Assembly (NCBI RefSeq): GCF_000017805.1
Contig: NC_009767.1
Coordinates: forward strand, 4,287,184-4,319,183
Origin: Roseiflexus castenholzii DSM 13941
Lineage (GTDB): Bacteria; Chloroflexota; Chloroflexia; Chloroflexales; Roseiflexaceae
DNA: 32,000 bases
Direction: 5' to 3'
Every line of letters begins with the position of its first letter. The stretch's first letter is position 1. Under the pieces are notes generated by a model, which was not told where the DNA came from, did not search any database, and saw nothing but the letters and a program-made list of their open reading frames with translations. The translations under genes were made by a program, and so were the position numbers. Of the stretch, positions 2,023-26,080 are shown in pieces.

Positions 2023-2110
2023 CGTTTGCACTCGACCAACCCATCGTCTGCTGACGTGACCCTTCGGTTGCCGAACCAGCCCGACATTTCAACATAAGGA
2101 GAACACTGCC

Positions 2111-3202: not shown

Positions 3203-3211
3203 GAGGCGGGC

Positions 3212-6266: not shown

Positions 6267-6269
6267 AGT

Positions 6270-7229: not shown

Positions 7230-7248
7230 ACATCGGGCGTGACCCGCA

Positions 7249-7271
7249 GAGACGTTGCATCGCAACGTCTC
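7249..7271 (+). other. Perfect 10-bp hairpin 20 nt after the cas6 stop (GAGACGTTGC-atc-GCAACGTCTC)
   Basis: Inverted repeat read directly. There is no U-tract, so it is not a canonical intrinsic terminator. Confidence 0.5.
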
Positions 7272-7506
7272 ACGGTTGAAGGTGAGAGTCCCCGACCCGT
7301 GAGGTCTCCACCGTTGACTGAGGTCTATCACGCAACCTCTCCAACGGAACAACTGATACCAATGACGATTGACGATGTCGCATGCGTGTCATTCCGAGCG
7401 CAGCACGGAATCGGCGCGGGTCGCGCACGACCCCTCGCGCTGCTCGGGGTGACCATGCCGGATGGTCACAGGTACTTGGTATGACGCTCCCAGTGTGGAC
7501 GTATGC

Positions 7507-7551
7507 GACCTCAAGGGTCTTGACGGAAGAAGGACCCTGACCCTTGAGGTC
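7507..7551 (+). other. 13-bp stem hairpin (GACCTCAAGGGTC ... GACCCTTGAGGTC, 19-nt loop)
   Basis: Perfect inverted repeat 7507-7519 / 7539-7551, immediately upstream of the mini-array. Confidence 0.5.
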
Positions 7552-7571
7552 TGCGCCACGGACCAGCGACT

Positions 7572-7680
7572 GGAACCGCGTCTCGCTGGCGCAAGCGAAA
7601 GGCGCAAATTCCGGGTGATAGGTGTATCGTGCGACGTACATGAGGAACCGCGTCTCGCTGGCGCAAGCGAAAGGCGCAAA
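7572..7680 (+). repeat. CRISPR-like mini-array: two identical 37-nt repeats (GGAACCGCGTCTCGCTGGCGCAAGCGAAAGGCGCAAA) flanking one unique 35-nt spacer
   Basis: Copies at 7572-7608 and 7644-7680 are 37/37 identical. The intervening 35 nt (7609-7643, TTCCGGGTGATAGGTGTATCGTGCGACGTACATGA) and both outer flanks are unrelated. The geometry matches the main array (37-nt repeat, 34-37-nt spacers). Each repeat has a 5-bp stem with a 6-nt loop (TCGCT-GGCGCA-AGCGA) followed by an A-rich tail. Confidence 0.6.
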
Positions 7681-7777
7681 GGCTTCGGCTGAACAGGCAA
7701 ACCCGAAAGGTTTGTGGAGTGCGTCTCTCCGTGCTCCCTGTGTCTCTGTGGTGTACACACGGTTGCAGGTGTTACGT

Positions 7778-7805
7778 GGTTCTCGGTTCTCAGTTCTCAA
7801 TTCTC
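7778..7805 (+). repeat. Four tandem heptamers GGTTCTC GGTTCTC AGTTCTC AATTCTC directly upstream of the cas1 RBS
   Basis: Read directly. It ends 3 nt before AAGGAG (7809-7814). Confidence 0.7.
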
Positions 7806-7821
7806 ACAAAGGAGACAGTTC

Positions 7822-8838
7822 ATGCACCTCATCGTAGACCAATTCGGCGTATTTATCTCAAAGCACCAGGGGCGCATTCGCGTCATGAAAGAGAAGGAAC
7901 GTCTATCGGAAGTGCCGATCATGCACCTGGAACAAATCCTCATTTGCAGCGACGGTGTCGGTCTCAGCAGCGACGTGGTGCGTGCCTGCGCCGAAGAAGG
8001 GATTCCGATCCACTTCCTCAACAGCGCCAACGGCGGCGACTATGGCACGTTCGTGCATAGCGGCATCACCGGCATGGCGCTCACCCGCCGTGCTCAATTG
8101 CGAGCCGGTGACGACGAGCGCGGATTGCGTCTGGCGCAGGCGTTCGCCAGCGGCAAAATCCAGAGCCAGGCGAACATGCTGCGCTACGCCGCCAAAAATC
8201 GCAAAGAGAACGACCCGGACCTGCACAACGACCTGATGCGCACCGCCACCGAAATCCTCGACGCCCTCCCGCCGCTGCGCGCCGTGCGCGGCGTCCTTAC
8301 CGACGAAACCCGCGCTGCGCTGATGGGCTTCGAGGGAATGGCCGGCGCGCGCTACTGGACAGCCGTGGCGCGCATCATTCCCGACGACCTCGGTTGGCCC
8401 GGACGCGAAACGCGCGGTGCGCGCGACCGCTTCAATCAGGCGCTCAACTACGGCTACGGCGTTCTCCAGTCTCAGGTGCGCACTGCCCTGATCCTTGCCG
8501 GGTTGGACCCCAATGCCGGGTTCCTCCACGCCGACCGACCGGGCAAGCCGAGCCTGACCCTTGACCTGATCGAAGAGTTTCGCCAGGCAGTCGTCGACCG
8601 CACCCTCATCGGGCTGGTCAACCGCCAGTTCGAGATTGTCCAGCGCGACGACGGACTGCTCGACGAGGACACCCGCAAACGCATCGCCGAGAAAATCCTC
8701 GAACGCCTGAACAGCACTGAGCTCTACGAAGGCAAGCGTCAGCCGCTCCGTCACATTCTCCAATGCCAGGCGCGCCACATCGCCACCTTTGTGCGCGGCG
8801 AACGTCCCACCTATGAACCGTTTGTGATGGGGTGGTGA
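7822..8838 (+). CDS. cas1: Cas1 integrase (338 aa)
   Basis: RBS AAGGAG at 7809-7814, then ATG 7822 (MHLIVDQFGVFISKH). Canonical Cas1 motifs NQALNYGYGVL and GFLHADRPGKPSLTLDLIEEFR. The track start at 7714 is unlikely because it lacks an RBS and gives a Cys-rich junk N-terminus. Confidence 0.92.
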   Translation: MHLIVDQFGVFISKHQGRIRVMKEKERLSEVPIMHLEQILICSDGVGLSSDVVRACAEEGIPIHFLNSANGGDYGTFVHSGITGMALTRRAQLRAGDDERGLRLAQAFASGKIQSQANMLRYAAKNRKENDPDLHNDLMRTATEILDALPPLRAVRGVLTDETRAALMGFEGMAGARYWTAVARIIPDDLGWPGRETRGARDRFNQALNYGYGVLQSQVRTALILAGLDPNAGFLHADRPGKPSLTLDLIEEFRQAVVDRTLIGLVNRQFEIVQRDDGLLDEDTRKRIAEKILERLNSTELYEGKRQPLRHILQCQARHIATFVRGERPTYEPFVMGW

Positions 8839-8917
8839 CGCTATGCGCGTGCGTGGCCGGACGGTGAGCATCCAGAGGGAGTCAGGTAACGACCGTTTGT
8901 GATGGGGTGGTGACGCT

Positions 8918-9175
8918 ATGCGCTGCCTGCTCATCTACGACATTCCCAACGACCGCGCGCGACAGAAGATTGCCGACGCCTGCCTTGACTACGGCTTACA
9001 GCGTATTCAGTACAGCGCCTTCAGCGGCAATCTCAGCCGCACCCATCAGCGCGAATTAATGACCGAAGTGAAGCGGCGATTGGGCAAAAACGCCGGTAAC
9101 ATCCAACTCTTCACCTTCCCGGACGACATCTGGAACGCGCGGCGTGTTATCAACCAGGGAGAAAGCCATGAGTGA
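8918..9175 (+). CDS. cas2: Cas2 (85 aa)
   Basis: MRCLLIYDIPNDRARQKIADACLDYGLQRIQYSAFSG is a typical Cas2 N-terminal ferredoxin fold with the catalytic Asp in YDI. Size and position next to cas1 agree. Confidence 0.9.
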   Translation: MRCLLIYDIPNDRARQKIADACLDYGLQRIQYSAFSGNLSRTHQRELMTEVKRRLGKNAGNIQLFTFPDDIWNARRVINQGESHE

Positions 9176-9764
9176 AAGCACTTTCGAGGTGACCGATCTG
9201 CGACAGTGGGCATACTGCCCGCGCGTCGTCTACTACCAGCACTGCATGCCCGACATCCGACCCATGACAAAGCTGATGATCGCCGGCATGGAAGAACACC
9301 GGGCGGAAAGTGGGCGCGAGGAGCGGCGTTCGCTGCGCACCTACGGATTGAAACAGGGCGAACGCTTCTTCGATGTACCACTGCGCTCAGAGACACTCGG
9401 GTTACGCGGGCGCGTCGATCTGGTCATCGCCCTGCCCGACCGACAGCACGCAACCGAAGTCATCGTCGTAGAATACAAAAGCACCGAAGGCAAAGCCGGT
9501 CCGCACGTCAAACTCCAACTCACCGCGTATGCGCTCATGATCGAAGAAGCGTGGGGCGTGCCGGTCAAACGAGGATTCATCTACCACATGCCGGAGCACA
9601 AAGCCGAAGCAGTGACAATCAGCGCCGCGCTGCGCGAGCGTGTGTACACAACCGTTGCCACGATCCGCGAAACAGTCGATCACGAACGCATGCCTGCGCC
9701 GCCCGCCTCACGCCGACAGTGCGCCGTCTGTGAATTTCGCCGGTTCTGTAACGATGTCGTCTGA
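9168..9764 (+). CDS. cas4: Cas4 RecB-like nuclease with Fe-S cysteines (198 aa)
   Basis: N-terminal WAYCPR Cys, RecB motif GRVDLVI...VVEYKS, QLTAYALM motif and C-terminal CAVCEFRRFC. The likely start is ATG 9168 (MSESTF), which overlaps the cas2 end by 8 nt. Confidence 0.88.
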   Translation: MSESTFEVTDLRQWAYCPRVVYYQHCMPDIRPMTKLMIAGMEEHRAESGREERRSLRTYGLKQGERFFDVPLRSETLGLRGRVDLVIALPDRQHATEVIVVEYKSTEGKAGPHVKLQLTAYALMIEEAWGVPVKRGFIYHMPEHKAEAVTISAALRERVYTTVATIRETVDHERMPAPPASRRQCAVCEFRRFCNDVV

Positions 9765-10129
9765 AGAGGTAAGGGGTCAGGGGTTAAGGATGAGGAGCAA
9801 CACCTTTACAAGTGTAAGAATAAAAGACATTGTAACCCTGGCTCCTGACCCCCGCCTTTCAGCGACGCTCTCGCAACTCGCCGGTCACGTGTTCAAAACG
9901 CCGTCTTCTGTAATCGGCGTGTCAAGGATTTTTGCAGGCATTTTCCGCTTCAGAAAGAGAAGAATGATGCTTCGCAACTTGACGCGGTTTTCAGACAAGA
10001 ATCGAGTTGCGAAACGCACCCATTCATGCTATGATGTTAGCGTTGCAACGACGCAGCAGGAAGGCTCAGGAGCGTCGAAGATCTATCACTACGACAATCC
10101 ACACGCACGAGAGAGGTGATGGAAGTGGG
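9765..10129 (+). promoter_or_regulatory. CRISPR leader
   Basis: A 365-nt non-coding, lower-GC stretch between the cas4 stop and the first perfect repeat. It contains an inverted repeat GGGGTCAGG (9773-9781) / CCTGACCCC (9844-9852) around an AT-rich core, and a promoter-like element. Confidence 0.75.
10007..10035 (+). promoter_or_regulatory. Putative sigma70-type array promoter: TTGCGA - 17 nt - TATGAT
   Basis: -35 at 10007-10012, -10 at 10030-10035, with 17-nt spacing. It lies about 95 nt upstream of repeat 1 and is oriented toward the array. Confidence 0.45.
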
Positions 10130-13100
10130 CTTTCCGATTTTTCGGCTCGCAGAAGAGCACTGAAATAATGATTGAACCAATCCGCCGCCTGGGCCAGCCA
10201 GTTTCCGATTTTTCGGCTCGCAGAAGAGCACTGAAATATATTTCGAATTCGACTAACCCGTACCAGTGTCCAGCTTTCCGATTTTTCGGCTCGCAGAAGA
10301 GCACTGAAATTCAACATATCTGAGACCGGGGGGGAATATTGCAGGTTTCCGATTTTTCGGCTCGCAGAAGAGCACTGAAATGCCATAGGTACTCCTCTGA
10401 CCTATGACCGGCGTCACTTTCCGATTTTTCGGCTCGCAGAAGAGCACTGAAATGGACGCAAGCGGTCTTATCCAGGCGCTTGCAGATTCTTTCCGATTTT
10501 TCGGCTCGCAGAAGAGCACTGAAATGAGCACTGGGCGGATAACCCGGCGCTGCGTCCTGCGCTTTCCGATTTTTCGGCTCGCAGAAGAGCACTGAAATTA
10601 CGTGATCAGGTTGTGTGTTAATTATTACTGGATTAACTTTCCGATTTTTCGGCTCGCAGAAGAGCACTGAAATTTCGCGACCGCGCCGACCGGACGCCAG
10701 CGCACCGCTTTTCCGATTTTTCGGCTCGCAGAAGAGCACTGAAATCGCGACGGACCGCGCGGCGCGCGGCGAACACGGCATCTTTCCGATTTTTCGGCTC
10801 GCAGAAGAGCACTGAAATTTCTCAAGGGCAACCAGTTTGTCAACCATATCGCGGTTTCCGATTTTTCGGCTCGCAGAAGAGCACTGAAATTGTCCGGGTT
10901 GACGCCTTCCTCACTGAAATGCAGGTTTCCGATTTTTCGGCTCGCAGAAGAGCACTGAAATCGGACAGCACCGCAGGCAGCAAGACGCCCAGCAGGCTTT
11001 CCGATTTTTCGGCTCGCAGAAGAGCACTGAAATCAGATCAACGAGTGGATATTGGTACTGTATATAACCGCTTTCCGATTTTTCGGCTCGCAGAAGAGCA
11101 CTGAAATTTGCGCTTGGCAAGAGCCTCTACACGCACGGCGCACTTTCCGATTTTTCGGCTCGCAGAAGAGCACTGAAATTTGCGTTCCCACAAGGTCGCC
11201 GTCGAAGACGGCGACTTTCCGATTTTTCGGCTCGCAGAAGAGCACTGAAATGCCAGCGCCGTGTCGCCCGGCTCGGGGGTTATCGAACTTTCCGATTTTT
11301 CGGCTCGCAGAAGAGCACTGAAATGGGGTTGGGGTTAAGAGGGGCCCACGACAGGACGCGATTTCCGATTTTTCGGCTCGCAGAAGAGCACTGAAATCTT
11401 GATTTGCCGGGCCCGGAAAGCGGGGCGTATGCACTTTCCGATTTTTCGGCTCGCAGAAGAGCACTGAAATCGCAGAGCACTGGGCGGACAACCCGGCGCT
11501 GAGGCTTTCCGATTTTTCGGCTCGCAGAAGAGCACTGAAATCGCGAAAGGGGGGGGGATTGGGGCAGTATGGTTAACTTTCCGATTTTTCGGCTCGCAGA
11601 AGAGCACTGAAATTCGACGCGGAGACGGTCGAGGAGGCGGTCGAGGAGGCTTTCCGATTTTTCGGCTCGCAGAAGAGCACTGAAATACCGCTCCCTCGCT
11701 TGCGTAGACGAACAACGTGCGCCTTTCCGATTTTTCGGCTCGCAGAAGAGCACTGAAATAACGCCGCGCCGCGCTCCTCATCAACAGCGCGCTCGCTTTC
11801 CGATTTTTCGGCTCGCAGAAGAGCACTGAAATTCAATGCTTACATCGATCTGGAACCGACCCGGATAACTTTCCGATTTTTCGGCTCGCAGAAGAGCACT
11901 GAAATATAGCGATGAAGGGGGGGATAACCTTCCCTTCTTTTCTTTCCGATTTTTCGGCTCGCAGAAGAGCACTGAAATCCCGTCCGCACGAGCGACATCG
12001 CGCGCGACGTGATCTTTCCGATTTTTCGGCTCGCAGAAGAGCACTGAAATCGTGGTGCCACGGCGCAGTCAACGACATGCGTCGACTTTCCGATTTTTCG
12101 GCTCGCAGAAGAGCACTGAAATCGCTCGGCGTCGACGTGCTGCTCAATTACGCCGGCTTTCCGATTTTTCGGCTCGCAGAAGAGCACTGAAATTCGACAA
12201 CACCGCGTCGCAGCAGTTCTTCCGCTACCTTTCCGATTTTTCGGCTCGCAGAAGAGCACTGAAATAAATTCGGCATCACGAACCTCCTCATCAACAAAAG
12301 ATTTCCGATTTTTCGGCTCGCAGAAGAGCACTGAAATGCGCGACTGACAGCAGCCCCATCGCCACGTTCACCGTTTCCGATTTTTCGGCTCGCAGAAGAG
12401 CACTGAAATTCCGGGTTCGTCCTTCTGGGCGCGTGGCGCGGCGCTCTTTCCGATTTTTCGGCTCGCAGAAGAGCACTGAAATCCCCGCTAGTACTTTAGT
12501 ACCACACACACACCACCACCTTTCCGATTTTTCGGCTCGCAGAAGAGCACTGAAATTCCTCGCTCTACGACGGCGAGGACGGGCTGGCAGCCTTTCCGAT
12601 TTTTCGGCTCGCAGAAGAGCACTGAAATATGTGAATATGCCCGCCGATTGACCGGTAAGGATAGTTTCCGATTTTTCGGCTCGCAGAAGAGCACTGAAAT
12701 CTTTTGCGGCGCGCCAGCGCACCCAGTCGCCGAACGTTTCCGATTTTTCGGCTCGCAGAAGAGCACTGAAATCGTCCAAACGTTCGTATCCTCAACCCAA
12801 TCGCCGCCGCTTTCCGATTTTTCGGCTCGCAGAAGAGCACTGAAATCCAAAAGACGCCGGGCGTGTTCTACGCCCGCGCCGGCTTTCCGATTTTTCGGCT
12901 CGCAGAAGAGCACTGAAATTCCGCGGCGGCGGCGGCGATGCTCATCACGCGATGTTTCCGATTTTTCGGCTCGCAGAAGAGCACTGAAATGATGTCATAA
13001 ACGAGCACGAATTTCTCGACACGCGGGTCTTTCCGATTTTTCGGCTCGCAGAAGAGCACTGAAATCGACTGCGGTCAACAGCGGCTCATCGCGCATTCGG

Positions 13101-16100
13101 CTTTCCGATTTTTCGGCTCGCAGAAGAGCACTGAAATATCTGCTCATCGACCTGGGCGAGGTGACGCTGCCGCCTTTCCGATTTTTCGGCTCGCAGAAGA
13201 GCACTGAAATCCTCGTCGTTGTAAACAGAAACCGAGACCAACGTATTTCCGATTTTTCGGCTCGCAGAAGAGCACTGAAATGTGTTCGACGCCGCGCGCG
13301 GGCTGTCGGGCTTTGATTTCCGATTTTTCGGCTCGCAGAAGAGCACTGAAATCCTGAACCTCGCCAGGAATATCGACGCCGCCAAACTCTTTCCGATTTT
13401 TCGGCTCGCAGAAGAGCACTGAAATCAGACATGTGCAGCGTCAATGGAGTGACGCACGCACTTTCCGATTTTTCGGCTCGCAGAAGAGCACTGAAATTGC
13501 TGCATTTGTAAAAAACGGGGAGTTTAGTCCTGATTTCCGATTTTTCGGCTCGCAGAAGAGCACTGAAATAAAAAGGCCTCTGGGAGCCATTATAAGGCGC
13601 GAAAATTTCCGATTTTTCGGCTCGCAGAAGAGCACTGAAATCCTTATGCTCGACATCGTAAGCGCGCCGCTGCCGACTTTCCGATTTTTCGGCTCGCAGA
13701 AGAGCACTGAAATCAAAACCTGCAACGGCGAACAACATCGCATCCATCACTTTCCGATTTTTCGGCTCGCAGAAGAGCACTGAAATCATCATGGATGAGT
13801 CGACGATGAGTCGCACGATAAGCTTTCCGATTTTTCGGCTCGCAGAAGAGCACTGAAATGCGTCAGCGCGGTGAGCGCAGGCAGCGCCAGGCTGCCGTTT
13901 CCGATTTTTCGGCTCGCAGAAGAGCACTGAAATGCTGGTATCGTCACGGTGCTAAACCGGCGAGGATTGGCTTTCCGATTTTTCGGCTCGCAGAAGAGCA
14001 CTGAAATTGTCTACACGACAGGTACTCGGGAGTTTATCGAGGCCTTTCCGATTTTTCGGCTCGCAGAAGAGCACTGAAATGGCTCGATGTACTTGCCAGC
14101 GGGCGACGATCAAATTGGCTTTCCGATTTTTCGGCTCGCAGAAGAGCACTGAAATCTGATCTCATTCCTTGTCAGACCAACAACACTGCGTTTTCCGATT
14201 TTTCGGCTCGCAGAAGAGCACTGAAATGTCTGGACGATCGATGCGGGAATGTTAGCAAGCACGTTTCCGATTTTTCGGCTCGCAGAAGAGCACTGAAATT
14301 CGGTCTTTGTGGCGGTCAAGCGGGCGATTGGACGCTTTCCGATTTTTCGGCTCGCAGAAGAGCACTGAAATCTGTCACTGATGAGACGCTCATCAGTAAC
14401 CGCAGCTTTCCGATTTTTCGGCTCGCAGAAGAGCACTGAAATGATGACATGGAACGGCGTTCGCGGTTGGAGCGCCTGTTTCCGATTTTTCGGCTCGCAG
14501 AAGAGCACTGAAATTGCGTGCATGAAGGCGTCTTGGCCTGAAGACGCTCACTTTCCGATTTTTCGGCTCGCAGAAGAGCACTGAAATAAACTCGCGCGCG
14601 CGGGCGAGGAGGGGGTCGTCGGATTTCCGATTTTTCGGCTCGCAGAAGAGCACTGAAATTGAAGGTATACGTAACGGTATAAACTGGTGACGGACTTTCC
14701 GATTTTTCGGCTCGCAGAAGAGCACTGAAATGATGGAAGATCGAGGGAATCGAATTCGCGTCGCCGGCTTTCCGATTTTTCGGCTCGCAGAAGAGCACTG
14801 AAATCACGCATTCACACGCGTCCGCCTACAGGCATATACACCTTTCCGATTTTTCGGCTCGCAGAAGAGCACTGAAATTCGCGCGCGCGCGAGTACTGCT
14901 TCCACCGCCGGACCCTTTCCGATTTTTCGGCTCGCAGAAGAGCACTGAAATCGTTCGGCGCGTGATGAGTTGATTACGCGCTCAATTTCCGATTTTTCGG
15001 CTCGCAGAAGAGCACTGAAATGCAGGGAGGGCATGAGATCGGCAAGCGCATCGTGCGCTTTCCGATTTTTCGGCTCGCAGAAGAGCACTGAAATTTCAGA
15101 GCCTTGTCCAATTCCAAGGCGACTTCCGCTTTCCGATTTTTCGGCTCGCAGAAGAGCACTGAAATGCTGGTCGAACTTTGTGGGTAGGAGGCACTAAACC
15201 GCTTTCCGATTTTTCGGCTCGCAGAAGAGCACTGAAATCACCTTTACTGAATAATACATGTTGACAAGAATGTCATCTTTCCGATTTTTCGGCTCGCAGA
15301 AGAGCACTGAAATTTGACGTGCGTGTCCGGCGTCTCACGCGACGCTGCTTTTCCGATTTTTCGGCTCGCAGAAGAGCACTGAAATTCGACCGCGCGCGCG
15401 CGGCGGTTAAGCACAAATGCTTTCCGATTTTTCGGCTCGCAGAAGAGCACTGAAATTCAGGACGGTCACCAGCGCTGGAGCATCGACGTAGCTTTCCGAT
15501 TTTTCGGCTCGCAGAAGAGCACTGAAATCAGATTACACTAATGTACAATTTACATCTATCCTTCTTTCCGATTTTTCGGCTCGCAGAAGAGCACTGAAAT
15601 CCATATCTCTTATATTCCTGACGTGATAATCATACCCTTTCCGATTTTTCGGCTCGCAGAAGAGCACTGAAATACCAACGACGCCGAAGCGCCGGCGGTT
15701 ATGGTGCGCTTTCCGATTTTTCGGCTCGCAGAAGAGCACTGAAATCTTATGCCTTATGAGGAGGACAAAAATGTGACTCTTCTTTCCGATTTTTCGGCTC
15801 GCAGAAGAGCACTGAAATGGCGCAATACACGGCGCCTTGGTAATTGTTGAAAAACTTTCCGATTTTTCGGCTCGCAGAAGAGCACTGAAATTAAGTACGG
15901 TCGTCAATAGTACTTCCGGCGTGCCAATTTCCGATTTTTCGGCTCGCAGAAGAGCACTGAAATCAAAAGTACAAAACTTCTTCTCACCGAAAAAATCGAA
16001 CTTTCCGATTTTTCGGCTCGCAGAAGAGCACTGAAATGCTGGGTGATGCGGGGCAAGCTGTTGAATCGTTGGTTTCCGATTTTTCGGCTCGCAGAAGAGC

Positions 16101-19100
16101 ACTGAAATCCGTCGTGGTGCGGGTACAGTCCAAGCAATCCGTCTTTCCGATTTTTCGGCTCGCAGAAGAGCACTGAAATGCATTAAGCGCTCTATTTTTG
16201 CATCGAAAATAGTCGCTTTCCGATTTTTCGGCTCGCAGAAGAGCACTGAAATCTTACAGTCAATTGACAATATTACAGGCGATTGGTCTTTCCGATTTTT
16301 CGGCTCGCAGAAGAGCACTGAAATTCGGGATCGTATGCGTGGTACTACAAAGGGCCCGCGCTTTCCGATTTTTCGGCTCGCAGAAGAGCACTGAAATTCT
16401 TACCCCGCCAATAATGCAGCGCCGGACCATCCGCTTTCCGATTTTTCGGCTCGCAGAAGAGCACTGAAATTTCTAGTTTGATGATGAGCGACTGCGCGTC
16501 TTAGCTTTCCGATTTTTCGGCTCGCAGAAGAGCACTGAAATGTATATGACTTGTACAGGCGAACAGTGTACACCTCATTTCCGATTTTTCGGCTCGCAGA
16601 AGAGCACTGAAATCCAATCGTATATATCTTATATTCCTAACGTGATAATCTTTCCGATTTTTCGGCTCGCAGAAGAGCACTGAAATCTCGCGACTTGACG
16701 CGCGACCTGATGCTCTGGGGTTTCCGATTTTTCGGCTCGCAGAAGAGCACTGAAATAGAAGTTTTGTTTTGGCGGGAAAACTGTGGTTTTACAATCTTTC
16801 CGATTTTTCGGCTCGCAGAAGAGCACTGAAATCGGCAGGAACAGCGCGCCAGCCTTCGAGCTCCGTGTATTTCCGATTTTTCGGCTCGCAGAAGAGCACT
16901 GAAATTGCCCAAAAAAAACCGGCGACACGCTTCCATTGTGTTTCCGATTTTTCGGCTCGCAGAAGAGCACTGAAATTGGTGCAGTCTCTGGACTCCATCC
17001 AGGCGCTGCGTGGTTTCCGATTTTTCGGCTCGCAGAAGAGCACTGAAATCGATAATACGCCTGATAATACGTTGTTGCATGCGATTTCCGATTTTTCGGC
17101 TCGCAGAAGAGCACTGAAATCTTCCGCGGTTTTGCGTACTTCCGCGTACTCCGGCGTTTTCCGATTTTTCGGCTCACAGAAGAGCACTGAAATTCGGCAG
17201 ATCCATGTCTTGCACGTTGACCGACCAGTTTCCGATTTTTCGGCTCGCAGAAGAGCACTGAAATCTTCCGACGCCGACGCCGGAGTACGCAGAAATTCGC
17301 TTTCCGATTTTTCGGCTCGCAGAAGAGCACTGAAATATGTGACGGTCTGCGATATGTTTCAGGGCAACATACTTTCCGATTTTTCGGCTCGCAGAAGAGC
17401 ACTGAAATGTGCCATTCCGCACGAAGGAAGGAATACCGCTGCGATTTCCGATTTTTCGGCTCGCAGAAGAGCACTGAAATCCGATCCGAGCGTGCTCTAT
17501 TTACCGTGTTTTCGAGTTTCCGATTTTTCGGCTCGCAGAAGAGCACTGAAATATTCTGATTTCGACGCTCTCTTGTGGCTTCAACCACTTTCCGATTTTT
17601 CGGCTCGCAGAAGAGCACTGAAATCCTCTCACCACCATTTTCGCTATGTCGGCATCGGCTTTCCGATTTTTCGGCTCGCAGAAGAGCACTGAAATGCATT
17701 CCCTGATGGAGGACGGCATGGATTGGATAATTTCCGATTTTTCGGCTCGCAGAAGAGCACTGAAATCGAGCGCCGACGGGCGCTGGTGGTCAGCGCGCTG
17801 CTTTCCGATTTTTCGGCTCGCAGAAGAGCACTGAAATTGAACAAAACTTTGGTCGATACCGGCCACTTTTTTCTTTCCGATTTTTCGGCTCGCAGAAGAG
17901 CACTGAAATAAAGTTCAATACCTGGAAAAACTTTACCTCGCAAATTTCCGATTTTTCGGCTCGCAGAAGAGCACTGAAATATTCGTAGTCCGGTTATCTG
18001 CTGGTCCTTATCGAACCTTTCCGATTTTTCGGCTCGCAGAAGAGCACTGAAATACAATCTCGACGTAGCACAGTCGCCAACCCGGGTTATTTCCGATTTT
18101 TCGGCTCGCAGAAGAGCACTGAAATCCCGAAGTGGTATGGACAGACCCCGACATATGCTCGTTTCCGATTTTTCGGCTCGCAGAAGAGCACTGAAATCTT
18201 GTACCCGCTGACAGTATTCCCCCCCCGTTTCACTTTCCGATTTTTCGGCTCGCAGAAGAGCACTGAAATGTCGCTCCCTCTCCAACGCCGCCGGATTGAC
18301 CTAAATTTCCGATTTTTCGGCTCGCAGAAGAGCACTGAAATTGAAACGAATGTCGCTTTCGCCGCGAATGTCTCATCCTTTCCGATTTTTCGGCTCGCAG
18401 AAGAGCACTGAAATCCGGTCAAGCGCACCGTCAGGCAGCACCAAGCCTGACTTTCCGATTTTTCGGCTCGCAGAAGAGCACTGAAATGCGATCCAGAGCG
18501 TTCTCCAACTCGTAAGGTTGTAAGTTTCCGATTTTTCGGCTCGCAGAAGAGCACTGAAATCGCTTTTCGCCGCGTTCAGCGCGCTGCGCACGGCGTTTTC
18601 CGATTTTTCGGCTCGCAGAAGAGCACTGAAATCGACTGTCATATGGGGATGCCGGTACATCGAGTGACTTTCCGATTTTTCGGCTCGCAGAAGAGCACTG
18701 AAATTCGAGCATCAGCACTGGCGGGGTTGTTGGACACGGCAAGCTTTCCGATTTTTCGGCTCGCAGAAGAGCACTGAAATCCCTGCCGCCAAAACGCTTG
18801 CGCGGCAGGCTGGAACTTTCCGATTTTTCGGCTCGCAGAAGAGCACTGAAATTTGACTATCTTGTTGCAACGTATCCTTATGGGGAATTTCCGATTTTTC
18901 GGCTCGCAGAAGAGCACTGAAATTTTCCCTTTCGAAATTGCTCGATAGAGAAGAATCGCACTTTCCGATTTTTCGGCTCGCAGAAGAGCACTGAAATTGC
19001 TATCGAGCATCTCTCCAGAACGTCGTCCGGTATCACTTTCCGATTTTTCGGCTCGCAGAAGAGCACTGAAATACAAGCGCAGGAAGTCAATCCATTGACC

Positions 19101-22100
19101 GCCGCCCTTTCCGATTTTTCGGCTCGCAGAAGAGCACTGAAATATGAACTCACCCGCACCGGACACCCAATCGCGGAGCCTTTCCGATTTTTCGGCTCGC
19201 AGAAGAGCACTGAAATTCCTGAAGGAAAGAAGCATTCTGTACGACCTAGTTGTTTCCGATTTTTCGGCTCGCAGAAGAGCACTGAAATGCCGAGGGCGTC
19301 GGCGTCGAGGATTGCGCGGAGACCTTTCCGATTTTTCGGCTCGCAGAAGAGCACTGAAATATCAGTACTGTGGCCGGTTTCCTGGCGCTAGCGCCATTTC
19401 CGATTTTTCGGCTCGCAGAAGAGCACTGAAATTCTTCGTGGGCGACGCAAAGGCGAGCAAACTCACGCGTTTCCGATTTTTCGGCTCGCAGAAGAGCACT
19501 GAAATTGTTACACTTCATACTCGGAGACTGGCTTCCGCCACCTTTCCGATTTTTCGGCTCGCAGAAGAGCACTGAAATAGACGACAACCGCGCCGCGCAG
19601 CGCCTGGACGGATTTCCGATTTTTCGGCTCGCAGAAGAGCACTGAAATCCATGCCTGTTGCTACTACCATTGCCCTATTAGCGTTTCCGATTTTTCGGCT
19701 CGCAGAAGAGCACTGAAATTTCGACGACCTGCGGCGGCATCTTCTCCAGCGCCTGTTTCCGATTTTTCGGCTCGCAGAAGAGCACTGAAATCCGTCGGAA
19801 GTTGCGCGAAGGGAAGTCGGCGCGATGATCTTTCCGATTTTTCGGCTCGCAGAAGAGCACTGAAATCTCGCAATCGCGCTCCACGCCGCAGACGCAGCGT
19901 TTTTTCCGATTTTTCGGCTCGCAGAAGAGCACTGAAATCCGATTGTGCGGCAGTTCCCGACGCCGCCATCGCTGCGCTTTCCGATTTTTCGGCTCGCAGA
20001 AGAGCACTGAAATTCATCAACCATCACAGACGCTCTCACCATCCGATACCTTTCCGATTTTTCGGCTCGCAGAAGAGCACTGAAATGTCGAACATGTGCC
20101 GCGTCCCGTCATCATCGAAATTTTCCGATTTTTCGGCTCGCAGAAGAGCACTGAAATGCGACGCATGCGACGCTTGCGTGAGAAACGTGACATCCTTTCC
20201 GATTTTTCGGCTCGCAGAAGAGCACTGAAATTTCGTCAGCGCCTTCATCAACCATCACAGACGCTCTCTTTCCGATTTTTCGGCTCGCAGAAGAGCACTG
20301 AAATGCAAGCGTCGCGCACAAAACAGTTCGTAATCCGAACGTTTCCGATTTTTCGGCTCGCAGAAGAGCACTGAAATGCGCCGGTCGGGTGCTCGATATT
20401 GCCTTGTTGCGCCGACTTTCCGATTTTTCGGCTCGCAGAAGAGCACTGAAATTTCGGCATCTGTGAGGAGGGGGCGCGAAAGGAGGCTTTTTCCGATTTT
20501 TCGGCTCGCAGAAGAGCACTGAAATCCTTCCCGGCTTCCCGGCGCCGGTTCCGGCTGCCGGTTTTCCGATTTTTCGGCTCGCAGAAGAGCACTGAAATTA
20601 TTGCAATCGCATCGGTCGCGTCGTCGGCGATTGCTTTCCGATTTTTCGGCTCGCAGAAGAGCACTGAAATTCGATCAGTTTTGTCAAGACTTCTCGATAT
20701 GCCGGATTTCCGATTTTTCGGCTCGCAGAAGAGCACTGAAATTCCGTTTTTCGTCTTGTCGTCTCATGTTGTCACCTTTCCGATTTTTCGGCTCGCAGAA
20801 GAGCACTGAAATGCACATCGCGGATAAGCGCGTAGAGCGTTATATGCATTTCCGATTTTTCGGCTCGCAGAAGAGCACTGAAATTGGGTGTTGTATGCTT
20901 GACTATGCGCGCGTTCGATGCTTTCCGATTTTTCGGCTCGCAGAAGAGCACTGAAATCCGGTCGGTCTTGTCGCGCGGCGCTGCGCATCGTATTTCCGAT
21001 TTTTCGGCTCGCAGAAGAGCACTGAAATCGCAGCGCCTGGATGTCATCCAGCGAGCGCAACACTTTCCGATTTTTCGGCTCGCAGAAGAGCACTGAAATC
21101 TCAACCGCGCGCCGGAGATCGCTGAACAACTCCTCTTTCCGATTTTTCGGCTCGCAGAAGAGCACTGAAATTGCTCAATGCTGCTGGCGCCATTGCGAGG
21201 ATGATTGCTTTCCGATTTTTCGGCTCGCAGAAGAGCACTGAAATTGAGATCGCGCGTCGGATTGGATGCTCGCATATCACTTTCCGATTTTTCGGCTCGC
21301 AGAAGAGCACTGAAATCCGGTGTGCTATGAGCGTGATGTTCCGGGCGACGACTTTCCGATTTTTCGGCTCGCAGAAGAGCACTGAAATACAAACGCAGGA
21401 AGTCAATCCATTGACCACCGCCGATTTCCGATTTTTCGGCTCGCAGAAGAGCACTGAAATCGCAGCGTGACGGCGTGGGGGGTCAGATTTACCAGTTTCC
21501 GATTTTTCGGCTCGCAGAAGAGCACTGAAATTGGTCGTCTCCGTCGCCGCTCCCGCCCTCCCCGGACTTTCCGATTTTTCGGCTCGCAGAAGAGCACTGA
21601 AATCTACGAGTCAAATAATCGACACAATCACGCCGCGTCATCTTTCCGATTTTTCGGCTCGCAGAAGAGCACTGAAATGCGTATGACTGGCGCCTGAACG
21701 CGAGTAGTTGATTCCTTTCCGATTTTTCGGCTCGCAGAAGAGCACTGAAATTGTCCAGCCATGCCAGCCTTCTTTCCACCCAGTCTCTTTCCGATTTTTC
21801 GGCTCGCAGAAGAGCACTGAAATATGAAGGTAAGTACGGCGGAGCGTATGGATTGACTTTTCCGATTTTTCGGCTCGCAGAAGAGCACTGAAATCGCGCT
21901 CGATAACCACGCGCGCGCGCGCGTCGTCTTTCCGATTTTTCGGCTCGCAGAAGAGCACTGAAATGTCATACTCATCAACGCTGATCCCCATCAACACGTT
22001 GCTTTCCGATTTTTCGGCTCGCAGAAGAGCACTGAAATCCTCTCGCTCACGTCGAGCGCGATACATGTCGAATCTTTCCGATTTTTCGGCTCGCAGAAGA

Positions 22101-25100
22101 GCACTGAAATTCGTAATTGATCGCTTCGCTCAGCATCCGATAGTGATTTTCCGATTTTTCGGCTCGCAGAAGAGCACTGAAATGCGTAGTAACACGGTAG
22201 CAGCGTACTGTGTTCATCGTCTTTCCGATTTTTCGGCTCGCAGAAGAGCACTGAAATCTGTACGTGGTGTCAGCAACAAGACAGTGCCACTTTCTTTCCG
22301 ATTTTTCGGCTCGCAGAAGAGCACTGAAATATGTCGACAAAAATCAGCGCATCAACCTGTATTACTTTCCGATTTTTCGGCTCGCAGAAGAGCACTGAAA
22401 TTTTTCGAGCGAAACAAGCTTATCAACCATATCGCGGCTTTCCGATTTTTCGGCTCGCAGAAGAGCACTGAAATTTTTGACCGAGCAAAAAGTTTACAGA
22501 GTCAATTAACTTTCCGATTTTTCGGCTCGCAGAAGAGCACTGAAATCCGAGAATCAGGGCGTTATTGTAATTCAATCCCGACTTTCCGATTTTTCGGCTC
22601 GCAGAAGAGCACTGAAATATGAACTCACCCGCACCGGACACCCAATCGCGGAGCCTTTCCGATTTTTCGGCTCGCAGAAGAGCACTGAAATCTTTACCAC
22701 AAGACATAACACAAATATCCTTTGTAGCTTTCCGATTTTTCGGCTCGCAGAAGAGCACTGAAATTGTTAAACAACGTGCATTGGTTTAGAAGGACTGGTA
22801 AACTTTCCGATTTTTCGGCTCGCAGAAGAGCACTGAAATTGTACAAACCTGGCAATCGGTGTAAACGGGTTGAATTTCCGATTTTTCGGCTCGCAGAAGA
22901 GCACTGAAATGATTGTCTTGCGTGTCGCTCCACGAGACCTGACTCGCTTTCCGATTTTTCGGCTCGCAGAAGAGCACTGAAATTGCAGGTTTCGGGAAAT
23001 TATCAGGAGGAACGGTAGCCTTTCCGATTTTTCGGCTCGCAGAAGAGCACTGAAATCGGAAGGGATGTCATCTTCTCCTTGGTCGATAGAATTTCCGATT
23101 TTTCGGCTCGCAGAAGAGCACTGAAATATCTCATCGCCAATCGATCGCTCTCGCCGCAAGTGGCTTTCCGATTTTTCGGCTCGCAGAAGAGCACTGAAAT
23201 ACGGTTCGGGTTACAACAAGCGCCCCGGCGAGTTTGCTTTCCGATTTTTCGGCTCGCAGAAGAGCACTGAAATGGCGTTACGCGCCGCCGAGCGTTGCGC
23301 GCCGCGCACTCTTTCCGATTTTTCGGCTCGCAGAAGAGCACTGAAATCTTCAGATCGAGACGCCTCCAAAAGTTTTTTCTTTCTTTCCGATTTTTCGGCT
23401 CGCAGAAGAGCACTGAAATCAAGATTGTCGCCAATTCGCCTGTCTGCTCTGTGTGTTTCCGATTTTTCGGCTCGCAGAAGAGCACTGAAATCATGGACAA
23501 CCACGCGCCAACCCCGATCGGTGGTCGTCTTTCCGATTTTTCGGCTCGCAGAAGAGCACTGAAATCCGTACTTACCTTCATTGGTGTACGGCGGCGAGAT
23601 GCTTTCCGATTTTTCGGCTCGCAGAAGAGCACTGAAATTCTGTCCGAGACGGTTCACAATCGGTTCGATTTTGCCTTTCCGATTTTTCGGCTCGCAGAAG
23701 AGCACTGAAATCTAAGAGCATACGAAAAGAAGTTACTGCTATAAAGATTTCCGATTTTTCGGCTCGCAGAAGAGCACTGAAATTGAAACTCAAGGGTGGG
23801 TCGCACCGATGTTTCCTGCTTTCCGATTTTTCGGCTCGCAGAAGAGCACTGAAATTCCCTTTTTCCTTGATCCAAACCTCGATGTCCGCTTTCCGATTTT
23901 TCGGCTCGCAGAAGAGCACTGAAATACCCTAAGATTTTCTTCTTGTTGTTTTACGACAACATTTCCGATTTTTCGGCTCGCAGAAGAGCACTGAAATAAT
24001 ACTATTTGAGCGTAGCAATGCGCATGCTTGCACCTTTCCGATTTTTCGGCTCGCAGAAGAGCACTGAAATACGTCATGGCGCGCCGCCAAAAAGCCGCGC
24101 TAACGCTTTCCGATTTTTCGGCTCGCAGAAGAGCACTGAAATAGGTCGAGCGCGAGTTGCCTCACGTCCTCAAGTGATTTCCGATTTTTCGGCTCGCAGA
24201 AGAGCACTGAAATTTCCGCCCGCGCTGGCGCGCCACGCGCGGGCGACGGCCTTTCCGATTTTTCGGCTCGCAGAAGAGCACTGAAATCGGTGCTGTTGTA
24301 GCGTCGTGACGGTGCGATTTTCTCGCTTTCCGATTTTTCGGCTCGCAGAAGAGCACTGAAATTTCCCGATTCGTGGTGGTCGTATGGATGGGATGACTTT
24401 CCGATTTTTCGGCTCGCAGAAGAGCACTGAAATCGCGGGGTGCTCAAAAACCACGCAGAGCCCCGCTCGTGTTTCCGATTTTTCGGCTCGCAGAAGAGCA
24501 CTGAAATCACAGGCGGCGGCGGACACAGCGATGCGTTGATGGCGCGTTTCCGATTTTTCGGCTCGCAGAAGAGCACTGAAATCTTTGTGATGCCGGTATC
24601 GGCGCGACAAATGTCTGATTACGTTTCCGATTTTTCGGCTCGCAGAAGAGCACTGAAATACAATTATTCCTTCGGCCGAGCGTTTGCGTTCAAAGTTTCC
24701 GATTTTTCGGCTCGCAGAAGAGCACTGAAATATTTATTGCGCGACGCGCAGACACGCGGCTTGATTGAGTTTCCGATTTTTCGGCTCGCAGAAGAGCACT
24801 GAAATCTCGTAGAGCTCGGAATGACACGCAAGGATTGCATTCAGTTTCCGATTTTTCGGCTCGCAGAAGAGCACTGAAATTATGACGGCGACCCCGGCTG
24901 GTATTGCCGTGACGGTTTCCGATTTTTCGGCTCGCAGAAGAGCACTGAAATATCAGATCGTTGAGCCTGGGGAAGAGTACATCATAGGTTTCCGATTTTT
25001 CGGCTCGCAGAAGAGCACTGAAATATACAGTAGATCATGCTGTCTGCTTGACTATGTGCGGTTTCCGATTTTTCGGCTCGCAGAAGAGCACTGAAATCGG

Positions 25101-25608
25101 CAAAACAGATCGCGCTCGCGCGCCCGCGCGCGGGTTTCCGATTTTTCGGCTCGCAGAAGAGCACTGAAATATTTCAGAGAGGGCCATCCTTTCAATTACG
25201 TCGCCGGGTTTCCGATTTTTCGGCTCGCAGAAGAGCACTGAAATATCAATGACCTATTCTCACCATCTTGCACCCGCGCAAGGTTTCCGATTTTTCGGCT
25301 CGCAGAAGAGCACTGAAATTGGTTGGTCGCTGGGGGTGGAGCGTCACGCCGCCGGTTTCCGATTTTTCGGCTCGCAGAAGAGCACTGAAATGTTATCAGA
25401 GCAGAAGATCGTTTCGCTCATCGATACGTTTCCGATTTTTCGGCTCGCAGAAGAGCACTGAAATTCAGGGAACGCGGGAATAAGCGCGCGACAAGCGCCA
25501 AAGTTTCCGATTTTTCGGCTCGCAGAAGAGCACTGAAATAGGTCGCAATTGGACCGCCGTCAATATGCAAAACGTGTTTCCGATTTTTCGGCTCGCAGAA
25601 GAGCACTG
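10130..25608 (+). CRISPR. CRISPR array: 214 repeats (213 full plus a 33-nt truncated terminal copy) and 213 spacers, unit length 70-77 nt
   Basis: The repeat is NTTTCCGATTTTTCGGCTCGCAGAAGAGCACTGAAAT (37 nt). It has hairpins CCGA-TTTT-TCGG and GCTC-GCAGAA-GAGC followed by an 8-nt ACTGAAAT tail. Positions 2-37 are invariant apart from one SNP at 17176. Orientation is + because the leader and promoter are at the cas end, the truncated and degenerate repeats are at the far end, and the hairpin-plus-8-nt-handle geometry fits. Track peptides such as FRFFGSQKSTEI, SDFSARRRALK and SVLFCEPKNRK are repeat translations. Confidence 0.99.
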
Positions 25609-26051
25609 CCCCCCTAATCTCCCGCACGCGGGGGGGTAAGGGGGGTAAGGGGGGCAACTTGCCGAGGTCGGGCGCAGAATGCGCATGGCACGAGCGGCGG
25701 TTCGGCGCTGCACCGGGTAAGGGGGGCAACTTGCCGAGGTCGGGCGCAGAATGAGGGAGATTGCGAAGGAGCAACCCCCCGCACGCGGGGGGAAGGGTTG
25801 TCAAAACGGGTAATCCTCCTCGTTCTCCTCGGCAACCCCCCATACACGGGGGAAAGGAGGCTCACCGGCGAGACATATACCGGCGGCAGCGGGCAACCCC
25901 CGCACGCGGGGAAAGGGATAATGCAGGCTCACAACACAAGGAGACCGGTTGGCAACCTTTACGGCGCGAATGTAATCTCGATAATCCTGCATAAATGCAG
26001 GCTCACGACACAAGGAGACCGGTTGGCCCCCCACACGCAGGAGAAGGGGCG
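25609..26051. repeat. Mosaic of unrelated, partly decayed CRISPR-like repeats in the trailer
   Basis: (a) A 39-nt direct repeat GGGTAAGGGGGGCAACTTGCCGAGGTCGGGCGCAGAATG at 25643-25681 and 25715-25753 (period 72). (b) GC hairpin units GCAACCCCCCGCACGCGGGGGGAAGGG at 25771, 25832 and 25893 (period 61, 61), plus degenerate relatives at 25616 and 26025. (c) A 34-nt repeat AATGCAGGCTCAC[A/G]ACACAAGGAGACCGGTTGGC at 25920-25953 and 25994-26027. Confidence 0.7.
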
Positions 26052-26080
26052 ATTTCCGATTGTTTGGCTCGCAGAAGCAC
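26052..26080 (+). repeat. Degenerate copy of the main CRISPR repeat, 444 nt beyond the truncated terminal repeat
   Basis: ATTTCCGATTgTTTgGCTCGCAGAAG--CAC compared with ATTTCCGATTTTTCGGCTCGCAGAAGAGCAC: two substitutions and a 2-nt deletion, with the 3' handle lost. Confidence 0.7.

What the first reader, a model, noticed from the sequence alone, without database searches (positions are those of the whole stretch)
10130..24433. One-nucleotide slippage at the leader-side integration site recorded in about one third of the units
In repeat units 1-198 the base just 5' of TTTCCG is C in 132, A in 29, G in 26 and T in 11 (manual parse). Units with C have a mean start-to-start length of about 72.75 nt (n=131), and units with A, G or T about 71.77 nt (n=66), which is one nucleotide shorter. 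Spacer length is therefore the same (about 35.8 nt) if position 1 is repeat-derived in C units and is the last spacer base in non-C units. A homologous spacer pair shows this directly. Spacer 10819-10853 ends ...CAACCATATCGCG, then G, then TTTCCG. Spacer 22402-22437 ends ...CAACCATATCGCGG, then C, then TTTCCG. The 36-nt register is the same, but in the first unit the protospacer G occupies repeat position 1. Position 37 is never variable. This fits Cas1-Cas2 attacking between repeat positions 1 and 2 on the leader side in a large fraction of acquisitions. Such an error leaves the leader-proximal repeat intact, so it is not inherited. Natural records of integration imprecision at this resolution are unusual.
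Basis: seen in the sequence. Interest (0 to 1): 0.72.

Follow-up and report, generated by a model that had tools for sequence, protein, structure and literature searches.

The report
Imprecise CRISPR spacer insertion after junction deletion
A 214-repeat CRISPR array in a Roseiflexus-like bacterium lost two bases where new spacers are inserted, and since then the insertion enzyme has cut at either of two neighbouring positions, leaving a readable record of about 197 individual choices.

Summary
There are 198 repeats whose base before TTTCCG is C132/A29/G26/T11. The interval is 36.75 nt when that base is C and 35.77 nt when it is not (p=6e-9).

The locus is a type I-B CRISPR-Cas system (cas8b1-cas7-cas5-cas3-cas6-cas1-cas2-cas4, leader, array) from a Roseiflexus-like Chloroflexota.

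[quoted passage not shown] This is a 2-nt deletion that removes the conserved first G of a 37-nt repeat.
- **An internal control.** The 16 oldest repeats keep that G without exception.
- **A second case.** A Roseiflexaceae MAG (L014, 102 repeats, p=8e-5) shows the same signature, and its over-represented base is also the junction base. About 18 related arrays have sharp boundaries and no such length effect.

No protospacer was found in any collection, so the direct test is still missing. Some length-distribution details remain unexplained. This is a natural counterpart of laboratory repeat-mutant experiments: neat and useful, but specialist.

The parts
517..9764 (+). Type I-B cas operon: cas8b1/cst1 517-2022, cas7/cst2 2111-3202, cas5t 3212-3949, cas3 3828-6266, cas6 6270-7229, cas1 about 7822-8838, cas2 8918-9175, cas4 9144-9764
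   Evidence: NCBIfam hits. Pfam CRISPR_Cas6 for 6270-7229. Precomputed Pfam hits on identical metagenome genes.
9765..10129 (+). CRISPR leader, conserved in Roseiflexus relatives
   Evidence: 99.3-99.7% identical over their shared lengths to the leaders in L001, L002, L005 and L006, and 72-76% to the Roseiflexus/Chloroflexota MAGs L056, L007, L009 and L010.
10007..10035 (+). Promoter-like site TTGCGA-17-TATGAT pointing into the array
   Evidence: Consensus scan: 1 site found against 0.2 expected from shuffles. Not tested experimentally.
10127..10136 (+). Mutated leader-repeat junction GGGC|TTTCCG. Near-identical strains read GGGCT|GTTTCCG, so the window has a 2-nt deletion of TG (or equivalently GT) that removes repeat base G1.
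   Evidence: alignment A1. Flanking cas6-cas4-leader DNA is 99.8-100% identical.
10130..24433 (+). Post-deletion block: 198 repeats of the 36-nt core with a preceding base that is C (132) or the last spacer base (A29/G26/T11). It records 197 acquisitions.
24471..25612 (+). Ancestral block: 16 repeats GTTTCCG...GAAAT (37 nt) with G1 invariant. The last copy (25577-25612) is truncated at its 3' end.
   Evidence: P(0/16 non-G | rate 0.335) = 0.0015.
10819..10854 (+). Spacer 10, whose final G occupies the 'position 1' slot. Its homologue is at 22402-22438.
22402..22438 (+). Spacer 170: same register as spacer 10, ending in the same G and then an extra C before TTTCCG
19073..19107 (+). Spacer 124 (...GACCGCCGCC+C). 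Its homologue, spacer 156 at 21389-21424, reads ...GACCACCGCC+GA, so the C of spacer 124 is probably not target-derived.

Best explanation
This is a type I-B CRISPR array whose native repeat is 37 nt (GTTTCCG...CTGAAAT).

A 2-nt deletion at the leader-repeat junction changed ...GGGCT|GTTTCCG to ...GGGC|TTTCCG. It removed the conserved first G of the leader-proximal repeat and the last leader base. All 197 later acquisitions used this damaged junction.

- **G|C site.** The former leader base C is carried along as a surrogate repeat position 1, and the duplicated segment is 37 bp again. This happened in about 52-66% of events.
- **C|T site.** The duplicated segment is 36 bp and the last spacer base abuts TTTCCG. 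This is visible in 34% of events and inferred in about 40-48% once spacers that end in C are allowed for.

The leader-proximal copy is rebuilt from the untouched bottom strand, so the junction is regenerated each time. The choice is therefore an independent, non-inherited coin toss.

Shown here: the two unit classes, the 1-nt shift, the deletion, the invariant ancestral block, the random order of events, and a second array with the same signature.

Inferred: the chemistry and strand assignment come from the established Cas1-Cas2 mechanism. The reason for two sites is also inferred. I take it to be competition between a cue that keeps a 37-bp duplication (a ruler from the repeat interior or spacer side) and local junction recognition that normally relies on CT|GTT and G1.
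For: - **Length shift.** Base counts and a 0.98-nt shift, p=6e-9.
- **Junction deletion.** Seen against near-identical contigs L002 and L005.
- **Ancestral block.** The 16 oldest repeats all have G, P=0.0015 under the later rate.
- **Family repeat length.** The Rfam CRISPR-DR19 consensus is 37 nt and starts c/G-UUUC. 14 of 17 related arrays with cleanly resolved cores have 37-nt repeats.
- **Base composition.** The non-C bases (A29/G26/T11) resemble the last spacer base of the C units (A34/C24/G46/T27).
- **No inheritance.** Events are randomly ordered: runs test p=0.40, no trend.
- **Second case.** L014 has a 36-nt core GTTCAAC... behind a leader ending ...CTGG. The preceding base is G58/C23/A11/T10 and the length shift is 0.93 nt, p=8e-5. 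In both arrays the over-represented base is the base at the leader junction.
- **Controls.** Related arrays have an invariant position 1 (56/56, 119/119, 120/120, 34/34, 63/63, 85/85...) and show no link between the last spacer base and spacer length.
- **Homologous spacer pairs.** Pairs 10/170 and 124/156 agree with the model.
- **Literature.** CT|GTT and G1 direct leader-side integration in P. furiosus (PMC6698737). The non-PAM end goes to the leader side in Cas4 systems (PMC10504553).
Against: - **No direct test.** No protospacer was found, so it is not directly shown that non-C bases are target-derived and most C bases are not.
- **Ambiguous overlaps.** In three overlapping spacer pairs (137/140, 76/90, 6/19) the C coincides with a C in the homologous target. 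This is ambiguous.
- **Unequal length spread.** If site choice were independent of prespacer length, both classes should have the same spread. C units are broader (sd 1.19 against 0.82, Levene p=0.015). Spacers of 38 nt or more are almost all in C units (13/131 against 1/66, Fisher p=0.037).
- **Shorter spacers after the deletion.** Post-deletion spacers average 35.76 nt against 36.69 nt in the old block (p=0.008, n=16). The model does not predict this.
- **Truncated last repeat.** The last repeat is cut off by foreign sequence rather than simply decayed. That classical orientation cue is therefore weaker than it looks.
Confidence: 0.8

Rival explanations
1. The repeat is now simply 36 nt and every preceding base, C included, comes from the target. 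Prespacer ends would be trimmed preferentially just after a C, by Cas4 or another nuclease acting at a downstream motif. Such C-ended spacers would come out about one nucleotide longer and more variable in length.
For: - C-ended intervals are longer and also broader (sd 1.19 against 0.82).
- Three of four informative overlapping spacer pairs have C at that place in the homologous target.
- With all bases counted as spacer, the mean of 36.4 nt is closer to the family norm of 36-37 nt.
Against: - The preferred base is C in the window but G in L014. In each case it equals the base at the leader-repeat junction.
- Nine related arrays with homologous Cas1/Cas2/Cas4 were tested base by base, and none links the last spacer base to length beyond what multiple testing allows. 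A broader scan of both repeat flanks agrees.
- The 16 old units have an invariant G.
- Spacer 124 has C where its homologue 156 has G.
Confidence: 0.1
2. Assembly or sequencing artefact: a C before the T-run is dropped in a third of the units.
For: A deleted C would give exactly the same pattern of a shorter unit with the last spacer base exposed. A 15-kb array probably needed long reads.
Against: - The 214 cores (7,704 nt, each with a T5 run) contain one substitution apart from the truncated last copy, and no indel.
- The G-type units show 0/16 events.
- An independent assembly (L014) has the same signature with a different base, and about 18 other arrays show none.
Confidence: 0.04
3. The array is read in the opposite direction, and the variable base is a PAM-derived nucleotide at the 3' end of the upstream repeat. 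This is the situation in E. coli type I-E, where the last G of the repeat comes from the AAG PAM and 'slipped' spacers carry another base.
For: On the minus strand the repeat ends ...CGGAAA[G/N], which resembles a GAAAG/GAAAC repeat end. The variable base would then sit where the I-E PAM-derived base sits.
Against: - The conserved leader with a promoter-like site lies on the left, next to cas4. Related contigs join the same leader to the first repeat.
- Rfam DR19 matches the + strand.
- A PAM-derived base predicts no length difference, but 1 nt is seen.
- The base equals the left junction base.
- The right-hand end copy lacks the last 4 nt of the repeat, so it could not serve as a template.
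Confidence: 0.03
4. Ordinary point mutation of repeat position 1 after integration.
For: Terminal repeat positions are sometimes polymorphic in arrays.
Against: - Substitutions cannot shorten the unit by one nucleotide (p=6e-9).
- 66 hits at one position against one substitution across the other 36 positions in all the intact copies is not a mutational pattern.
Confidence: 0.01

Closest known systems
Aberrant repeat duplication in engineered type I-B arrays of Haloarcula hispanica (Wang et al. 2016, PMC4872114). Related molecular-ruler work covers E. coli I-E (Goren et al. 2016, PMC5039180) and S. thermophilus II-A (Kim et al. 2019, PMC6895254).
   Same: An indel in the first repeat changes the size of the duplicated segment by single nucleotides. 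The result is read from the sequences of newly expanded arrays. The subtype is the same in the Haloarcula case.
   Different: In those experiments the leader-repeat junction stayed a fixed start site and the leader-distal cut moved. The changed repeat size was then propagated. Here the leader-side cut is the ambiguous one. Two sites are used side by side at about 3:2, the error is not inherited, and the record is natural (197 events) rather than engineered.
Leader-repeat junction motif of Pyrococcus furiosus Cas1-Cas2 with the Cst module (Grainy et al. 2019, PMC6698737)
   Same: The ancestral junction here (GGCT|GTTT) shares CT|GTT with the P. furiosus junction CCCT|GTTA. In that system G1 and GTT are key for accurate leader-side integration. 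The effector module is also Cst1/Cst2/Cas5t.
   Different: In vitro, mutating the first four repeat bases nearly abolished leader-side integration (<2% of reads). Here, loss of G1 was followed by at least 197 successful acquisitions with reduced precision.
PAM-derived last repeat nucleotide and 'slipped' spacers in E. coli type I-E (from my own knowledge; mentioned in PMC4872114)
   Same: A nominal repeat-terminal base is variable and informative about how individual spacers were taken up.
   Different: In I-E the base lies at the PAM-proximal, spacer-side junction and comes from the target, with no length change. Here it lies at the PAM-distal, leader-side junction. The common base comes from the array, and its absence shortens the unit by 1 nt.
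Rfam CRISPR-DR19 (RF01332) repeats of Chloroflexus and Roseiflexus type I-B arrays
   Same: The repeat matches at 49.7 bits against a gathering score of 40, on the + strand. The consensus is 37 nt: cUUUCgAuAaUUUCGGCUCgCgGaAGAGCACUGAAAC.
   Different: The window's current units carry only 36 fixed bases.

Membership tests
Type I-B CRISPR-Cas locus (Cst/Tneap-like) | Signature genes cas8b1/cst1, cas7/cst2, cas5t and cas3, plus the adaptation genes cas1, cas2 and cas4, next to the array | tested here: met
   NCBIfam: TIGR01908, TIGR02585, TIGR01895, TIGR01587/TIGR01596, TIGR00287, TIGR01573, TIGR00372. Cas6: PF10040.
Type I-B CRISPR-Cas locus (Cst/Tneap-like) | Regularly spaced direct repeats with unique spacers | tested here: met
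   214 repeats with intervals of 34-41 nt. Rfam CRISPR-DR19 above its gathering score.
Type I-B CRISPR-Cas locus (Cst/Tneap-like) | Spacers match mobile elements and have a 5' PAM | tested here: inconclusive
   No credible protospacer in phages, plasmids, IMG/VR or JGI metagenomes.
Ruler-type aberrant repeat duplication (Wang 2016; Goren 2016; Kim 2019) | The size of the duplicated repeat changes after an indel in the leader-proximal repeat | tested here: met
   A 2-nt junction deletion is followed by units with 37-bp or 36-bp duplicated segments.
Ruler-type aberrant repeat duplication (Wang 2016; Goren 2016; Kim 2019) | The displaced cut is the leader-distal (spacer-side) one, and the leader junction stays fixed | tested here: not met
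   The spacer-side end (GAAAT) is invariant in 213/214 copies. The variation is at the leader-side end.
Ruler-type aberrant repeat duplication (Wang 2016; Goren 2016; Kim 2019) | The aberrant size is passed on to later acquisitions | tested here: not met
   Events are independent: runs test p=0.40, and the first repeat still reads C+core.
I-E-type PAM-derived repeat-terminal nucleotide | The variable base lies at the PAM-proximal end of the spacer, which is the 3' end of the upstream repeat | tested here: not met
   With the orientation from the leader, promoter-like site and Rfam strand, the variable base is at the 5' end of the downstream repeat.
I-E-type PAM-derived repeat-terminal nucleotide | The base is copied from the target's PAM | not testable with these tools
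   No protospacers were recovered. Indirect evidence is against it: the base equals the leader-junction base in two arrays.

The most novel reading that the evidence does not exclude
In this Chloroflexota I-B family the leader-side integration site may be set by two separable cues. One is a measuring device that keeps the duplicated segment at 37 bp. The other is local recognition of the CT|G junction. Natural junction indels (window: loss of TG; L014: a 36-nt core behind ...CTGG) would uncouple the two, and each acquisition then records which cue won, at about 3:2. On this reading G1 is dispensable for activity, since at least 197 spacers were acquired and the array is among the largest known, but it is required for precision. 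The narrower and shorter spacer lengths at the minor site would further mean that site choice is coupled to the length of the prespacer's non-PAM overhang.
Probability: 0.45. Interest if true: 0.55.

Novelty: new variant of a known kind. Interest (0 to 1): 0.45.

Why it matters
Integration-site fidelity of Cas1-Cas2 is normally studied with engineered repeats and deep sequencing. Here a natural mutant array stores about 197 single-molecule outcomes, and a second array stores about 100.

The window's record suggests that losing the conserved first G and the last leader base does not stop adaptation. Instead it makes the leader-side cut ambiguous by one nucleotide. Both records show that such errors are harmless and not inherited. 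That explains how an array can keep growing with a damaged junction.

It also gives a simple computational signature: a half-conserved base at the repeat's 5' edge, together with a 1-nt length shift. This could be used to mine other arrays for integration errors. It warns that CRISPR callers will mis-assign repeat and spacer boundaries in such arrays. And it offers a ready-made substrate pair (GGGCT|GTTTCCG against GGGC|TTTCCG) for biochemical tests.

Tried and rejected
Nothing credible was found in any of these:
- The whole array against INPHARED phages (megablast, and blastn in two halves) and PLSDB plasmids. Only chance hits with E of 0.05 or more.
- Eight IMG/VR pattern scans. These used unions of homologous or paired spacers and a codon-degenerate pattern for the 10/170 target.
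- One JGI metagenome scan with the codon-degenerate pattern.
- All spacers against the window flanks and the other fetched loci, L001-L065.

**Repeat scans.** Exact repeat scans of GTDB genomes and JGI metagenomes found nothing.

**Right flank.** An exact look-up of the HemN-like gene, meant to reach the distal end of the array in other assemblies, found nothing.

**A third attack site one base further into the leader (GC+core).** Rejected for the window: there is no G enrichment and no extra length among units ending in GC. In L014 there is only a marginal hint, with GG units +0.6 nt (about p=0.055 by my own rough calculation, not a tool result).

**A leader-anchored cut inside the core (T|TTCCG).** Rejected because the first core T is invariant in 214/214 copies.

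**Change of error rate over time.** Rejected: no trend, and the runs test is not significant.

**Point mutation, artefact and reverse orientation.** See the rival explanations.


Full report
**What is there**

The window carries a complete type I-B CRISPR-Cas locus on the + strand. The genes are cas8b1/cst1 (517-2022), cas7/cst2 (2111-3202), cas5t (3212-3949), cas3 (3828-6266), cas6 (6270-7229), cas1 (about 7822-8838), cas2 (8918-9175) and cas4 (9144-9764). A 365-nt leader follows, and then an array of 214 repeats (10131-25612).

Cas1 relatives place the locus in Roseiflexus-like Chloroflexota. The closest are 86-96% identical and come from Roseiflexus and Chloroflexota MAGs. The repeat belongs to Rfam CRISPR-DR19, whose consensus is 37 nt and begins c/G-UUUC.

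**Checking the observation**

The 36-nt core TTTCCGATTTTTCGGCTCGCAGAAGAGCACTGAAAT is nearly invariant. There is one substitution, at 17158, and the last copy is truncated.

In repeats 1-198 the base before the core is C132/A29/G26/T11. The interval between cores, counted with that base, is 36.75 nt before C (n=131) and 35.77 nt before A/G/T (n=66). The Mann-Whitney p is 6e-9.

**Orientation**

- The leader next to cas4 is conserved among Roseiflexus relatives.
- It holds a promoter-like TTGCGA-17-TATGAT site at 10007-10035 that points into the array.
- The Rfam model matches the + strand.
- The repeat has the usual GTTT...GAAAN form.
- Short metagenome contigs join the same leader to a first repeat.
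- The far end copy is cut off. It is followed by G/C-rich palindromic elements and, 440 nt later, by a decayed repeat copy.

New spacers therefore enter on the left. The variable base lies at the 5' end of each older repeat copy, next to the PAM-distal end of the spacer. In Cas4-containing type I systems this is the end that integrates at the leader side (PMC10504553).

**A cause for the imprecision**

Contigs from other samples are 99.8-100% identical to the window across cas6-cas4 and the leader. At the junction they read ...GGAAGTGGGCT|GTTTCCGATTT, and the window reads ...GGAAGTGGGC|TTTCCGATTT.

The window has therefore lost two bases, TG, exactly at the leader-repeat junction. These are the last leader base and the conserved G1 of a 37-nt repeat. 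The G-type block at the old end of the window's own array shows that the G state is ancestral. The 'C' of the current units is the former leader base -2.

**Mechanism**

By the established Cas1-Cas2 chemistry, the top strand of the first repeat travels with the older copy. The leader-proximal copy is refilled from the intact bottom strand.

An attack at G|C yields spacer-C-TTTCCG, a 37-bp duplication. An attack at C|T yields spacer-TTTCCG, a 36-bp duplication. In both cases the junction is regenerated, so nothing is inherited.

The data agree with this:
- Non-C events are scattered at random. The runs test gives p=0.40, and there is no trend along the array.
- Their A/G/T mix resembles the last spacer base of the C units.
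- The old G block has none (0/16, P=0.0015).

The visible rate is 34%. Allowing for spacers that happen to end in C, the true rate is roughly 40-48%.

Two homologous spacer pairs support the assignment. Spacers 10 and 170 share a register, and the 'position-1' G of spacer 10 is the 36th spacer base of spacer 170. Spacer 124 has C where its homologue 156 continues with G.

**Controls and a second case**

About 18 related I-B arrays were fetched through Cas1. Their 5' repeat boundaries are sharp, with position 1 invariant in 56/56, 119/119, 120/120, 34/34, 63/63 and 85/85 copies. They show no relation between the last spacer base and spacer length.

The one exception is L014, a Roseiflexaceae MAG with 102 repeats. 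Its 36-nt core GTTCAAC... lies behind a leader ending ...CTGG. The preceding base is G58/C23/A11/T10. Units with G are 0.93 nt longer (p=8e-5).

In both arrays the over-represented base is the one at the leader junction. This argues that it is copied from the array and not from targets. It also argues against a sequencing artefact.

**Comparison with what is known**

Engineered repeat indels change the duplication size in Haloarcula I-B, E. coli I-E and S. thermophilus II-A. In those systems the leader junction stays fixed, the distal cut moves, and the new size is propagated.

In P. furiosus the CT|GTT junction and G1 direct leader-side integration, and mutating them nearly abolishes it in vitro.

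Here the leader-side cut is the imprecise one, two sites coexist, and the array still gained at least 197 spacers. In the literature searches I ran I found no report of such a natural record.

**What remains open**

- No protospacer could be found despite using every available scan, so the direct test is missing.
- C units have a broader length spread than non-C units (sd 1.19 against 0.82, Levene p=0.015).
- Spacers of 38 nt or more are almost confined to C units (13/131 against 1/66).
- Post-deletion spacers are about 0.9 nt shorter than those of the old block (p=0.008, n=16).
- These three points may mean that site choice depends on overhang length. Alternatively, a minority of the C bases may be target-derived. 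The rival in which all C bases come from targets is disfavoured but not excluded (about 0.1).

**Verdict**

It is a new natural variant of a known kind of event, interesting mainly to specialists in CRISPR adaptation.

Noticed in passing
L014:12174-19431 (contig CALKHR010000091.1, uncultured Roseiflexaceae MAG): A second array with the same signature. It has 102 repeats of a 36-nt core GTTCAACACAACGACTCAACCAGTGAGTACTGAAAC. The preceding base is G58/C23/A11/T10, and G units are 0.93 nt longer (p=8e-5). The leader ends ...GACTGG. Its spacers, at about 35 nt, are the shortest in the family.
   Followed up: partly
window 24434-25576 compared with 10167-24397: Spacers in the old G-type block average 36.69 nt, against 35.76 nt in the post-deletion block (Mann-Whitney p=0.008, n=16 against 197). 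Within the new block, C units have a wider length spread and hold nearly all spacers of 38 nt or more. The simple two-site model does not explain this.
   Followed up: partly
window 8849-8917: The window has about 75 nt between cas1 and cas2 that repeats the end of cas1 (CGTTTGTGATGGGGTGGTGACGCTATGCGC occurs twice). Contigs L002-L004 lack it and have cas2 4 nt after cas1. JGI contig L001 shares it. This is a strain polymorphism that looks like a short tandem duplication.
   Followed up: partly
window 25613-26080: The last repeat is truncated (GAAAT replaced by CCCC). It is followed by G/C-rich palindromic elements (CAACCCCCCGCACGCGGGGGG, 4 copies) and by a perfect 39-nt direct repeat at 25643 and 25715. 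A decayed copy of the CRISPR repeat follows at 26053-26080 (TTTCCGATTGTTTGGCTCGCAGAAGCAC). This suggests that foreign or repetitive DNA was inserted into an array that was once longer.
   Followed up: partly
window 19144-19180 and 22619-22655; also 20014-20050/20232-20268, 15601-15637/16614-16650, 10526-10562/11471-11505: There is one pair of identical spacers (125 and 173). Several other pairs overlap or are homologous, so the same targets were sampled repeatedly. The 10/170 pair differs mostly at every third base, as expected for a protein-coding target in two virus variants.
   Followed up: partly
L020:12250-16150 (Candidatus Chloroploca mongolica): Repeat position 1 is G in 48 copies and C in 5. 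All the C copies lie among the 11 most distal repeats, interleaved with G. This could be an older episode of junction change or imprecision.
   Followed up: no
L005:1239-1275: In this near-identical strain the first repeat ends GAAAC where the window has GAAAT, but the contig stops at that base. It may be a real variant or a contig-end artefact.
   Followed up: no
window 17158-17193: This is the only internal repeat with a substitution (G to A at core position 19).
   Followed up: yes
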